The notes below the pieces were generated by a model that was not told the DNA's origin, did not search any database, and worked only from the letters and a program-made list of their open reading frames with translations. This document shows positions 1,949 to 5,668 of a DNA stretch of 64,000 bases, one piece after another. Each line of letters opens with the position of its first letter. The first letter of the stretch is position 1. The translations under genes were made by a program, and so were the position numbers. The stretch comes from Balamuthia mandrillaris (lineage: Eukaryota), in assembly GCA_031835245.2 (NCBI GenBank), contig JAVKOQ020000028.1, positions 248,001 to 312,000 on the forward strand, written 5' to 3'.

Positions 1949-3149
1949 CTAAGGTTGACGATCGTCGGCGGAGCGGTGCTGCAGCAGCAAAGCTTTGACG
2001 GAGGAGGAGCAGTGGGCTCGCCACGTTATCTTGGAGATGGAGAAGAGGAGCACATCCAGCAATTTGTGCTGATTCGCTGTCTGCAAAGCCGACAAGCATT
2101 CTTCGATCTTTTTTCCGCGGAGAGAAGCTTTGAGAGAACAGAAGCAAAAGAAGCAGAAGAACAACAAGAAGAACAAGAACAAGAACAAGAACAAGAACAA
2201 GAACAACAAGAACAAGAACAAGAACAAGAACAAGAACAAGAACAAGAACAAGAACAAGAACAAGAACAAGAACAAGAACAAGAAAAACAAGAACAAGAAG
2301 AGGAGGAGGAGAGGAGGAGGAGAAGAAGAAGAACAAGAGGAAGAAAAACAAGAAGAAGAATTAACAAAGCTTACCTGAATGGGAGAACGTTTAACATCGA
2401 AGGTGTAAGAACCAGAAAACTTGTTGTGATATAAAATGGCGGCCGTCATTGCGCGTTCGTAGACTGCTTTTCTTCCGCTTTTAATAAAATAGAGAGAGAG
2501 AGATAGCAAGAAAGAAAGTAAGAGGAAAGCATGAAAGAAAGAACGAAAAAAAAAACAAGAAAGAAGAAAGAAGCTACTATACGTTTGTTGTTGAAGAGCA
2601 GCCAAACAGAAATTAGCGACTGCAGCCATAACCGTCTTCTCAAGGTTCCTCTGTTTATCGCTATAGTGTTGACCGTCGCCAGAAAACTTTGAGAACAACG
2701 GCATCGGGTCGGCCAGTTGCATCATCACCTGATGGATGAGTTCTGGACTAGGAATGACCCTGCCGATATGCCCTTCTTGCCCTGGTTTGGTTTGTTGCTG
2801 GTGGGGAAAGCCATAAACGCCGCCTGAGATGGATAGTGCCATTCCGTTCAAGAGCTTGTTTGGAGCCTTCTGGTAAAAGCATGTTTAATGAGAAGGGAAA
2901 GAGCAGGAAGTGGGAGAAGAAAGAGGAAGAGCAGAAGAAGACGCAACAACAGCAACCACAAGCACAACAAGAAAGAGGAAGGAAGAGAGAAATGAGTACG
3001 GAAGATAGGTCGAATTCTAGAAGAAAGGAAAGCAGTTCTATGAGCAAGTTTGCCATAGCGGGATCCTTGTTCCACTGTATCCCATTGCCTTCCGCCAACT
3101 TCTTATACGCAATATCAACAATTCCATCTTTAAGGGAGAGAGGGAGAGA

Positions 3150-3198
<49 letters not shown>

Positions 3199-5042
3199 TA
3201 CAGGAACAAACGAACAGCAAAGGCAATAATGAGTGAAAGCAGAGAACCTGTACTAAAGAGAATTGTGCTTTGCATAAAGTCGATGACTTGCTTTATGTAT
3301 TCCACAGTTTCCTCTTCCAACCCTTTCAGTGCTTTCTCTGTAACATTGTTTTCGTAAAACTTTCATAACAGTCCAACAGTTTTTAAGAAAACGCAAGTCA
3401 ATAGGATAAACACCCACAAAGAAGAAAGAGACGTAACAACCTTCAACACGGTGGTGATGAAAGAGATGGAAAGGTCGGTCATTTCCCGAATGCACCGCTT
3501 GGGATGTGCGATGAACGCCAAGGAGTGCTTCTTTCCGTTTGCCAGAGTGATGTCGTAGTTTGCAGCGCGCTTGGAATCTATTTTGTTGTTGCAGTTGGCC
3601 ACAGAAGAATGAGGAAAGAAGGAGGAAGAAGAAGCAGAAGAACAACACAAAAGGGGTTTTGATACCTTCTATCTCAGCTACTACCTCGGTTGCAATAGTA
3701 GATTCTGCCCGTTCGGTGGTCAGTCATTCAGGTCGAAAAGACAAGGAGGAGGGAGGGAGGAAGAGGAACAAGAACAAAGAAGAAGACAATAGGATTACTC
3801 TTTTTCTTCAGCAGAGGCAAGCGAGAATCTTTCGTAGAAAGAGGGTGAGAAAGCTTCCATTGGTCGTAGTAGGTGGTGACTAGCAGCTGCAGCAGTTGGT
3901 CGACATTCTCTCCGCTGCCAACGTTGCAAACGACTGGACATAAGGTATACTTTGTTGGAGCTTGGAGGGAGGAACATGAGCGGTGCCTCAAAAAACGAGA
4001 AAGAAAGAAGAGAGCAAGAAGTGGAAAGTACCGGGTGAGAAAGTCACTGAAGCCTCAGACGAAGAAGCACCTCGAGACAAAGCTACCACGATGATGGCTG
4101 CACCTTGAAAGCGTTTCGATGCTGCCGGTGAAAGAAAGAAAGAAGTTATTAGACAAAGGAAGAGAGAGAGAGAGAGAGAGAGAGAACAAGAGAAGGTTTA
4201 CCTTCAGGCAACCATCTAGCTGTAACGCCGTGTTGACTCTTTCTGGAGTCAGTTCGGTAACATAAAAGCACCACTGGAAATAATAAAGAAGTTCGCTCAA
4301 GTCAAGAGGAGTTCAATGAGGAGAAGGAGAAGGAGAAGGGGAAGGAGAAGGAGAAGGAGAAGGAGAAGGAGAAGGAGAAGGAGAAGGAGAAGGAGAAGGA
4401 GAAGGAGAAGGGAGAAGGAGAAGGAGAAGGAGAAGGAGAAGGAGAAGGAGAAGGAGAAGGAGAAGGAGAAGGAGAAGGAGAAGGAGAAGGAGAAGGAGAA
4501 GGAGAAGCAGAAGCAGAAGGAGAAGCAGAAGGAGAAGGAGAAGCAGAAGGAGAAGCAGAAACAGAAGCAGAAGCAGAAGCAGGAAAAGAAGAAGAAGAAG
4601 AAGAAGAAGAAGAAGAACAAGAAGCAGAAGAACAAGAACAAGAACAAGAACAAGAACAAGAACAAGAACAAGCAGGAGCAGAAAAAGGTGAAGGAATAAA
4701 GGTAGAAGGTAGCGATGAAGATGAACCATCAGTATTATGATAAGCCAGAGGTCGAAGCGGCTCATAAGATGGAGCGCTTGGAGTGTCCCATCTACAAAGT
4801 TTAATAAAGAGTCAACTTCGCTCAAGCCTTACTTAGCTGCACAAAACAAAGAATGAAGGTAAACGCACAAGTATACTTTGACTTTCTCTGCGGCTGGTGT
4901 TACACCAACTGTCATGAACACGTTGAACAAGGTTGGAATGTAACCCGGTTGGACGGAGCCAAATGCTAACTGCTCACACAGTCTAGTTGTACAAGTGTTA
5001 GAGAGCGAGCGTGAGGCAAAGAGAGAGAAGAGGATAGAAACC

Positions 5043-5078
<36 letters not shown>

Positions 5079-5286
5079 GAAGCAAACTTTGATTTCAAAG
5101 ATTGTTCGCTTCCAAGAAGGACCACTTTCATGTTTCTTGAGGGCGTTTCGGCATTCTTTCGAAACAAGGCTCGATAGTCCTCTTCCTCTTGTTCTGCCTC
5201 TTTACGGGTAAAGTGACAATGACCAGCTCGACCGTAGCGTAATGTGTACCATGCTTTCCACAACTGGCGCATATTACTTGTGAGCA

Positions 5287-5356
<70 letters not shown>

Positions 5357-5668
5357 AACGACAAGAAAGAAACGACAAGAAAGAAACGACAAGAAAGAAA
5401 CGACAAGAAAGAAAGAAACGACAAGAAAGAAACAACAAGACACGCCAACCAACAAAAACAAAGACAAACTTACGTTGTTGTCATGAGAGAAGCACCGGTG
5501 CCAGCTGCGACAAACCAAAGCAGCTTGCGGGAGGTCCCTCGGGTCCAAATACTCCGCCCACACTTTGTAGCTCACCTCCCACGGCAGCGCCTCCCAACCG
5601 CGGACAACCCCGCCGCTGCCTTCTTCTTCTTCTTTCCATGGTTCGCTTTCACGCCGTTGCGCCTCCAT
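1949..5668 (-). CDS. F-box + degenerate Rho/Rac-like GTPase + CYRI/FAM49 (DUF1394)-like domain fusion (multi-exon)
   Basis: F-box WEALPWEVSYKVWAEYLDPRDLPQAALVCRSWH, then MKVVLLGSEQSLKS and GYIPTLF (Rho switch-I-like). C-terminal exons DPAMANLLIELLSFLLEFDL, PELIHQVMMQLADPMPLF, MAAVANFC, RAMTAAILYH and LLDVLLFS..SSSVKALL follow the order of FAM49 helices. The halves join in frame through a phase-1 mini-exon at 3666-3704. Confidence 0.7.
2157..2300. repeat. (GAACAA)n microsatellite, intronic
   Basis: Direct inspection. Confidence 0.9.
4320..4672. repeat. (GAGAAG)n/(GAACAA)n compound microsatellite, intronic
   Basis: Direct inspection. Confidence 0.9.

What the first reader, a model, noticed from the sequence alone, without database searches (positions are those of the whole stretch)
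1949..5668. F-box - pseudo-Rho/Rac - CYRI(FAM49) triple fusion with both binding partners degenerate
Seen: the GTPase-like exons connect in frame to CYRI-like exons (..LLKKK/STIATEVVAEIE/DSKRAANY..) through phase-1 introns 3705-3798 and 3578-3665. The P-loop reads GSEQSLKS instead of GxxxxGKS/T, no DTAGQ is visible, and switch I YIPTLF is kept. In the CYRI part, the position of NDFSYYRR reads NGMALSIS. Established: CYRI/FAM49 binds active Rac through those arginines and antagonises Scar/WAVE, and F-boxes recruit Skp1-Cul1. Inference: a GTPase fold and its natural effector domain are fused into one SCF adaptor, possibly a ubiquitin-ligase receptor that mimics the Rac-CYRI/CYFIP interface to turn over actin regulators. 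I know no described protein with this architecture.
Basis: partly seen in the sequence, partly recalled or inferred. Interest (0 to 1): 0.8.

Follow-up and report, generated by a model that had tools for sequence, protein, structure and literature searches.

The report
Amoeba F-box fuses pseudo-Rho and CYRI
This amoeba gene joins a ubiquitin-ligase docking module (F-box) to a Rho-type switch domain and to that switch's usual partner domain (CYRI), both missing key binding residues, and it likely acts as an adaptor that uses the worn-down pair as a fixed grip to pick proteins for destruction.

Summary
The fusion is real. Fourteen exons with 13 GT-AG introns give a 612-aa protein identical to an NCBI Balamuthia mandrillaris record. 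Pfam finds F-box, Ras/Rho and CYRI (DUF1394), all above their curated cut-offs. Spliced contigs support 6 of 13 introns, including the fusion intron, though with only 20 nt on its short side. Three more copies exist; two are 41-44% identical yet keep the layout. All four lack the P-loop glycine, the G4 motif and the CYRI arginines, but keep the phosphate/Mg residues. F-box-Rho fusions are published for Naegleria, and this scan noted them on other DNA; the CYRI addition was not found in print. Most likely it is an SCF adaptor with a nucleotide-independent Rho-CYRI module. New variant of a known kind; interest 0.5.

The parts
1949..5668 (-). Whole gene, 14 coding exons (5668-5474, 5263-5088, 4982-4869, 4791-4727, 4273-4202, 4121-4032, 3960-3799, 3704-3666, 3577-3441, 3359-3248, 3127-3000, 2869-2583, 2477-2375, 2107-1949), 612 aa
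   Evidence: Model equals P0001 (KAL6073745.1); 13 of 13 introns GT..AG
5255..5596 (-). F-box, residues 25-68, split by intron 1
   Evidence: PF12937 E 2.9e-8; 27 of 52 columns of residues 25-76 identical in all four copies
3857..5134 (-). Rho-family G domain, about residues 109-272, exons 2-7
   Evidence: PF00071 111-221 E 7.4e-11; best PDB sequence hits are Rho-family, E 2.4e-15; G-domain fold for about 104-277 in a low-confidence model
5090..5113 (-). Altered P-loop GSEQSLKS; the glycine before the lysine (Rac1 G15) is Leu here, Phe in the paralogs
4913..4942 (-). Switch I, YIPTLFNVFM; Y32, P34 and T35 equivalents kept, D38 equivalent is Asn and S41 equivalent Met in 4 of 4 copies
4727..4791 (-).
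   Evidence: alignment to Rho structures; intron 3 joint in a spliced contig
4069..4083 (-). Lost G4 motif: ALSRG in place of Rac1 GTKLD
   Evidence: P0003-Rac1 alignment with the family alignment
3705..3798 (-). Intron 7, phase 1: the junction between the GTPase-side and CYRI-side exons
   Evidence: joint 3704/3799 in one X1 contig, 20 nt on the short side; the 20-mer is unique in the window
3578..3665 (-). Intron 8, phase 1
   Evidence: joint 3577/3666, 39 nt on the short side
2039..3077 (-). CYRI/DUF1394 core, residues 405-583 (profile positions 103-287 of 301); residues 330-404 upstream are predicted helices that probably complete the domain
   Evidence: PF07159 26.8 bits, 37.5 bits in P0002, 18.7 bits in P0003; residues 502-602 overlay CYRI-B 215-324 at 2.6 A over 99 residues, Z 8.0
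2816..2860 (-). Helix 434-448 (LLNGMALSISGG), at the expected place of CYRI's Rac-binding helix; no Arg or Lys
   Evidence: register to CYRI-B recalled, not aligned here
306..1817 (-). Tandem neighbour: F-box plus more decayed Rho-like pieces, reading ends at TAA 306-308 with no CYRI exons; likely a broken or truncated family member

Best explanation
The gene encodes one protein with an F-box, a Rho-type domain that lacks its guanine-binding motifs and a CYRI domain that lacks its arginines; it likely works as a substrate adaptor of an SCF ubiquitin ligase, in which the two domains are predicted to no longer switch and would form one fixed, nucleotide-independent binding module. Shown: one open 612-aa frame, three Pfam domains, splicing at 6 of 13 introns, four copies, and the shared residue losses. 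From established knowledge: F-boxes dock on Skp1-Cul1 and the rest of the protein selects substrates. Inferred: little or no GTP binding. Inferred more weakly: the Rho switch I still rests on the CYRI helix inside the molecule, because the charge pair of the normal complex (CYRI R160 with Rac D38) appears lost on both sides while non-polar switch I residues stay. Guessed: the substrate is a component of Rac/actin signalling.
For: Gene and domains. The two gene lineages are 41-44% identical overall, but the domains are better kept than linkers and ends: F-box 28 of 51, G domain 70 of 161, CYRI core 91 of 167 identical, against 27 of 108 in linkers and ends (Fisher p 3e-6 pooled). So all three domains were under constraint after the key residues were lost. 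Shared in 4 of 4 copies: G15 to Leu/Phe, Q61 to Ala, G4 lost, F28 equivalent to Val/Ile, D38 to Asn, N39 to Val/Thr, S41 to Met; no Arg/Lys in 436-450. In the CYRI-B:Rac1 crystal R160 pairs with D38, Q153 with S41 and S157 with N39 (PMC7955166, passages); the Rho-side partner of all three is changed here. No CAAX end and no Gly2 in 4 of 4 copies. Precedents: F-box-Rho fusions in Naegleria; RhoBTB ligase adaptors with an intramolecular GTPase contact (PMC4931677).
Against: No binding, localisation or substrate data. Both structure models are low-confidence (mean pLDDT 39.9 and 49.8) and say nothing on domain packing. The CYRI-side register was not aligned here, so the pairings on that side are inferred. 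Loss on both sides is also what independent decay would give. K16, S/T17, T35 and D57 equivalents are kept in 4 of 4 copies and DTAG in 2 of 4, which a nucleotide-free scaffold does not obviously need. The identity contrast rests on one paralog pair and an alignment of four sequences, and linkers align poorly. The N-terminal third of the CYRI profile (1-102) is unmatched and residues 310-404 are only 36 of 95 identical (p 0.05). Only Balamuthia copies were found.
Confidence: 0.45

Rival explanations
1. GEF trap. The Rho domain behaves like a natural nucleotide-free Rac(G15A), grips activated Rho exchange factors (the amoeba's own or bacterial mimics) and delivers them to the SCF ligase; the CYRI domain is a scaffold or shield.
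For: Rac(G15A) and RhoA(G17A) cannot bind nucleotide and have high affinity for activated GEFs (PMC3608494, passages). The same glycine is replaced in 4 of 4 copies and G4 is lost, while the Y32, P34, T35 and W56 equivalents are invariant. Bacterial GEF mimics of Rac exist (10.1101/238733, passages).
Against: Leu/Phe is far bulkier than Ala. D38, N39 and Q61 equivalents and much of switch II differ, and differ further between copies. It does not explain why CYRI is kept. No binding test.
Confidence: 0.2
2. Still a nucleotide-regulated adaptor, like RhoBTB3: it binds ATP or binds GTP weakly, and nucleotide opens or closes the Rho-CYRI contact and so gates the ligase.
For: The phosphate/Mg residues (K16, S/T17, T35, D57 equivalents) are kept in 4 of 4 copies while the guanine-specific elements are the ones lost. 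RhoBTB3 binds and hydrolyses ATP through G4/G5 changes (PMC4931677, passages).
Against: The P-loop glycine is Leu/Phe in 4 of 4 copies; G60 is Ser and A59 is Pro in this copy and in P0002.
Confidence: 0.15
3. Passenger domains in a fast birth-and-death F-box family: Rho and CYRI exons were captured by shuffling and are decaying with no specific role.
For: The adjacent paralog looks broken. P0002 carries further changes in switch I and II (F143V, R175L, Y179N). Birth-and-death is described for Naegleria F-box GTPases. No relatives outside one species.
Against: Four full-length open copies in two lineages 41-44% apart; domains twice as conserved as linkers; two copies seen in spliced contigs.
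Confidence: 0.12
4. Two neighbouring genes (F-box-Rho and CYRI) merged by gene prediction.
For: No single contig spans the G-domain core and CYRI: 3819-3871 is uncovered and the fusion joint has 20 nt on one side. The neighbour gene shows an F-box-Rho reading that ends without CYRI. The annotated copies may share one prediction pipeline.
Against: The joint matches the predicted GT-AG intron exactly. Only 221 nt separate exons 7 and 9, and they hold a spliced 39-nt exon. There is no in-frame Met between residues 271 and 336 and no Met-Gly start. A 41%-identical paralog on other contigs has the same order.
Confidence: 0.04

Closest known systems
Naegleria F-box-Rho/Rac proteins (Herman et al. 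2021, PMC8296547, Additional Files 4 and 10)
   Same: N-terminal F-box joined to a small-GTPase domain in a free-living amoeba; proposed link to ubiquitination; birth-and-death evolution.
   Different: Different eukaryote supergroup (recalled); the word DUF1394 does not occur in the 12 of 19 supplement files searched, which include the GTPase domain table; no CAAX here. Common origin not tested.
RhoBTB1-3 and Dictyostelium RacA (Cul3 adaptors)
   Same: Atypical Rho domain inside a cullin-ligase adaptor; intramolecular GTPase contact proposed; RhoBTB3 has a strongly diverged G domain.
   Different: BTB/Cul3 instead of F-box/Cul1; GTPase comes first; no CYRI domain; RhoBTB2 binds GTP and RhoBTB3 ATP.
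CYRI-A/B (FAM49) and the CYFIP DUF1394 domain
   Same: PF07159 match over profile 103-287; C-terminal Ratchet subdomain overlays CYRI-B at 2.6 A.
   Different: CYRI is a stand-alone, N-myristoylated DUF1394 that binds active Rac1 through R160/R161. Here the domain is C-terminal in a fusion, without Gly2 and without basic residues in that helix.
[quoted passage not shown]
   Same: G fold with degraded G motifs inside a larger protein, scaffold role likely.
   Different: Those have all or most motifs degraded; here switch I and the phosphate/Mg residues remain, and nucleotide binding is untested.

Membership tests
F-box protein (SCF adaptor) | F-box domain near the N-terminus | tested here: met
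   PF12937 33.8 bits, cut-off 24.3; also above cut-off in P0002 and P0003; P0004 not scanned
F-box protein (SCF adaptor) | Binds Skp1/Cul1 and a substrate | not testable with these tools
   needs pull-down
Canonical Rho GTPase | Rho-family sequence and G-domain fold | tested here: met
   fold Z about 10 on a low-confidence model. Rac versus Rho subfamily not resolved
Canonical Rho GTPase | G1 GxxxxGK[S/T] | tested here: not met
   GSEQSLKS/T, GDERSFKT
Canonical Rho GTPase | G2 threonine (T35) | tested here: met
   T141 in 4 of 4 copies
Canonical Rho GTPase | G3 DxxG with catalytic Q61 | tested here: not met
   DTPSA in this copy and P0002; DTAGA in P0003/P0004
Canonical Rho GTPase | G4 [N/T]KxD | tested here: not met
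   LSRG / LSSK against Rac1 TKLD
Canonical Rho GTPase | G5 SA[K/L] | tested here: inconclusive
   CNVGSG / CNVVTG at the expected place; the HMMER alignments stop before it, so the register is recalled
Canonical Rho GTPase | C-terminal CAAX | tested here: not met
   ends shown
PseudoGTPase (definition of PMC5593906) | [quoted passage not shown] | tested here: met
   G1, G3 and G4 altered
PseudoGTPase (definition of PMC5593906) | Class: no nucleotide binding, binding only, or residual activity | not testable with these tools
   needs biochemistry
CYRI/FAM49 | DUF1394 (PF07159) match | tested here: met
   26.8 and 37.5 bits against cut-off 23.1 in P0001 and P0002; 18.7 bits (E 0.001, below cut-off) in P0003
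CYRI/FAM49 | All-helical L-shaped fold with Rac-binding and Ratchet subdomains | tested here: inconclusive
   CYRI-B ranks 1, 5 and 6 by Foldseek but at E 0.08-0.18; rank 2 of 48,161 by VIA, Z 8.0, Ratchet part only, within the background range for helical proteins; Z 9.7 in the whole model
CYRI/FAM49 | Arg160/Arg161 Rac-binding pair | tested here: not met
   0 Arg/Lys in residues 436-450 in 4 of 4 copies; placement of this helix from the Pfam range and recall
CYRI/FAM49 | Stand-alone domain with myristoylated Gly2 | tested here: not met
   no Met-Gly in any of 4 copies; domain is C-terminal in a fusion
RhoBTB | Tandem BTB domains after the G domain | tested here: not met
   no BTB hit at E up to 1 in 3 proteins scanned
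Naegleria-type F-box-Rho fusion | F-box N-terminal to a Rho-family domain | tested here: met
Naegleria-type F-box-Rho fusion | Common descent with the Naegleria genes | not tested

The most novel reading that the evidence does not exclude
A natural, permanently docked Rac-CYRI complex in one chain: the two partners fused, swapped their GTP-dependent polar contacts for a constitutive non-polar interface, and now serve as the substrate receptor of an SCF ligase that removes Rac-pathway proteins (GEFs, WAVE-complex parts or bacterial mimics) in an amoeba.
Probability: 0.2. Interest if true: 0.8.

Novelty: new variant of a known kind. Interest (0 to 1): 0.5.

Why it matters
The papers read here describe DUF1394 in CYRI and CYFIP, always as a Rac-binding module. 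Here it sits in a third setting, fused behind a Rho-type domain and an F-box, with the binding residues gone on both halves and the layout kept across a deep gene duplication. If the halves still pack, this is a natural experiment in how a switch and its effector become a fixed scaffold, and a new link between ubiquitin ligases and actin control in an amoeba that infects people. If they do not, it is a curious lineage-specific member of the known amoebal F-box-GTPase class.

Tried and rejected
No whole genome is held, so the family could not be counted and dN/dS could not be computed. Exon-by-exon Pfam scans found only the F-box (1 of 13 exon pieces; 6 longer frames); the Rho and CYRI hits need the spliced protein. 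phmmer/hmmsearch of the CYRI part against PDB sequences did not reach CYRI-B. ESM Atlas gave no usable hit (best 0.79). A search for shorter relatives of the CYRI part found 0 of 1827 candidates, so no canonical CYRI sequence was available for a residue-level alignment. Pattern scans of viral contigs and metagenomes gave one locus, L001; I rejected it as chance (30 bits against P0001, nothing against P0003, unrelated ORF). These scans are insensitive to intron-rich distant relatives. The sensitive HMMER search of representatives never ran (queue full in all 10 tries) and the complex predictor was not available, so range and domain packing stay open. The two AlphaFold models had 4 and 3 sequences and low confidence; Foldseek gave no hit at E 0.001. 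Raw-read runs X21, X22 and X23 gave 4, 4 and 0 reads on 3200-4155 and no listed joint; X21 and X22 gave 0 reads on 4700-5290. An early idea that the intron-poor middle of the window is an integrated virus was dropped: 19 long frames scanned gave ordinary eukaryotic domains or nothing. My first acceptor for the last exon (2127) gave a stop and was corrected to 2107.
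Full report
Observation. The minus strand from 5668 to 1949 holds a 14-exon gene. I built the model from splice signals, corrected the last acceptor, and found that it translates to 612 aa with 13 of 13 introns GT..AG, identical to a database protein found with exon 12 as query. NCBI names that protein hypothetical protein QOT17_004743 of Balamuthia mandrillaris. Pfam on the spliced protein gives F-box-like 25-68, Ras 111-221 and CYRI/DUF1394 405-583, each above its curated cut-off. 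The switch II exon (4791-4727) was missed and is present.

One transcript? Run X1 (library not on record; RNA is the tool's guess, but its contigs lack the introns) gave joints at introns 6, 7, 8 and 9 and intron 3. A 30-nt loose end equals the start of exon 11, which supports intron 10. That is 6 of 13 introns. One 586-nt contig runs from exon 10 through exons 9 and 8 into 20 nt of exon 7; a second joins exon 7 to exon 6. Bases 3819-3871 inside exon 7 are uncovered, and 20 nt is under the tool's 31-nt bar, so one transcript is supported but not proven. The contig carries four base differences; three change a residue to that of the second copy P0002 and one is silent, so that joint comes from the P0002-type copy. 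The link from the F-box exon to exon 2 was not tested by reads; exon 2 itself carries both the end of the F-box and the P-loop.

Family. Four annotated copies were found, all in B. mandrillaris: P0001/P0002 (94-96% identical) and P0003/P0004 (96%). The pairs may be alleles or recent duplicates. The two groups are 41-44% identical over 95% of the length. P0003 scores for F-box and Ras above cut-off and for CYRI below it (18.7 bits, E 0.001). Between P0001 and P0003 the F-box (28 of 51), G domain (70 of 161) and CYRI core (91 of 167) are about twice as conserved as linkers and ends (27 of 108). The word-based searches covered 336-1071 aa (2 hits of 7994 candidates scored), 546-2000 aa (1 of 48) and 30-335 aa (0 of 1827); they find only fairly close relatives, so absence elsewhere is not shown. 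The next gene, 130 bp downstream, is an F-box with more decayed Rho-like pieces and no CYRI exons. A piece of the family's linker motif lies on the opposite strand at 254-319, which suggests a rearranged or truncated paralog.

The G domain. The best solved relatives are Rho-family GTPases; Rac and Rho score alike. Against Rac1, read through the P0003 alignment and the family alignment, all four copies replace G15 (Leu/Phe), F28 (Val/Ile), Q61 (Ala) and the G4 motif. This copy and P0002 also change A59-G60 to Pro-Ser. All four keep the K16, S/T17, Y32, P34, T35, W56 and D57 equivalents. It meets the sequence definition of a pseudoGTPase (PMC5593906, passages). Normal GTP cycling is unlikely; binding of another nucleotide is not excluded.

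The CYRI domain. The Pfam match covers profile positions 103-287 of 301. Structure prediction was weak (mean pLDDT 39.9 for the whole protein, 49.8 for the domain). Even so, CYRI-B was the only non-GTPase entry among the top 50 for the whole model (Z 9.7, 2.6 A, 102 residues), ranked first by Foldseek at a non-significant E 0.08, and second by VIA for the domain (Z 8.0, 2.6 A, 99 residues, Ratchet subdomain only, behind a designed repeat protein and within helical background). So the Ratchet half is moderately supported by fold and the Rac-binding half mainly by Pfam. In CYRI-B, R160 pairs with Rac1 D38, Q153 with S41 and S157 with N39 (PMC7955166, passages and section 11); R160/R161 and Gly2 myristoylation define the family (10.1101/164905, passages; PMC7543656, passages). 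Here the Rho-side residues are Asn, Met and Val/Thr in 4 of 4 copies, and the matching helix has no basic residue in 4 of 4. With the recalled register (N438 = N154) the CYRI-side residues are Ile, Leu/Ile and Ala. No CYRI sequence could be fetched, so this register is not tested. K431, just before the helix, is absent from the other three copies and may come from a choice between two acceptors 3 nt apart.

Mechanism. The F-box is the best-kept functional signal, so an SCF adaptor is the most likely role. The Rho and CYRI domains are kept but stripped of what makes them a switch and a GTP-dependent effector, so they likely act as a fixed binding module. The two-sided change of polar contacts to non-polar residues fits a constitutive intramolecular interface, and about 55 residues of linker lie between the domains, but independent decay gives the same picture, and the complex predictor was not available. 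Rivals are a trap for activated GEFs (Rac G15A precedent, PMC3608494, passages), a RhoBTB3-like nucleotide-gated adaptor (PMC4931677, passages), decaying passengers, and a prediction artefact.

Known or new. [quoted passage not shown] Files 13 and 15-19, including the figure of domain layouts, were not searched and could bear on this. Two earlier notes of this scan report such Naegleria genes without CYRI; the look-up by sequence found nothing. RhoBTB/RacA is the amoebozoan precedent for a Rho domain in a cullin adaptor (PMC8305917, passages). A full-text search for DUF1394 with F-box returned 0 papers. A wider one returned 7 papers, seen as listings only, none on such a fusion by title or abstract start. 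Balamuthia searches showed no paper on this family in their listings. The library lacks most subscription journals.

Verdict. A real, spliced, duplicated three-domain gene. Its F-box-Rho half is a known kind; the added, de-fanged CYRI domain is new as far as these searches reach. Function is inferred. Interest 0.5; the locked-complex reading has about 0.2 probability and would merit 0.8.

Noticed in passing
window 306-1817 (-): Tandem neighbour 130 bp downstream: F-box (PF12937 E 1.5e-6) plus more decayed Rho-like pieces matching this family; reading stops at 306-308 without CYRI exons, and I could not build a clean frame through its switch regions.
   Followed up: partly
window 254-319 (+): A piece matching the family's linker/exon 9 motif on the opposite strand (64% identity to P0003 over 22 aa, E 0.006; profile E 4e-4), after intron-like CT-rich DNA, meeting the end of the neighbour gene near 315-320. 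Possibly an inversion breakpoint, a tail-to-tail remnant or an assembly join.
   Followed up: partly
window 2867-2870 (-): Two acceptor AGs 3 nt apart at exon 12; the upstream one adds K431, which the other three copies lack.
   Followed up: partly
window 6031-8388 (+): Intronless, GC-rich (0.59) 785-aa frame with a class I/II aminotransferase domain (E 9e-40) and a weak dATP/dGTP diphosphohydrolase N-terminal hit (E 1e-3), divergent from the finding; its composition differs from the flanks.
   Followed up: no
window 9889-24733 (-): Long run of large frames with PH-BEACH, BEACH and WD40 at the low end and an armadillo-like hit at the high end: probably one large BEACH-family gene.
   Followed up: no
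window 30887-34348 (-): PH-domain frame followed by a RhoGAP frame (E 5e-36), about 25 kb from the finding.
   Followed up: no
window 35050-37838 (-): MULE transposase and SWIM zinc-finger frames: a Mutator-like element.
   Followed up: no
window 27418-29232 (-) and 41977-42960 (-): An RNase III domain frame and a multi-PAS frame.
   Followed up: no
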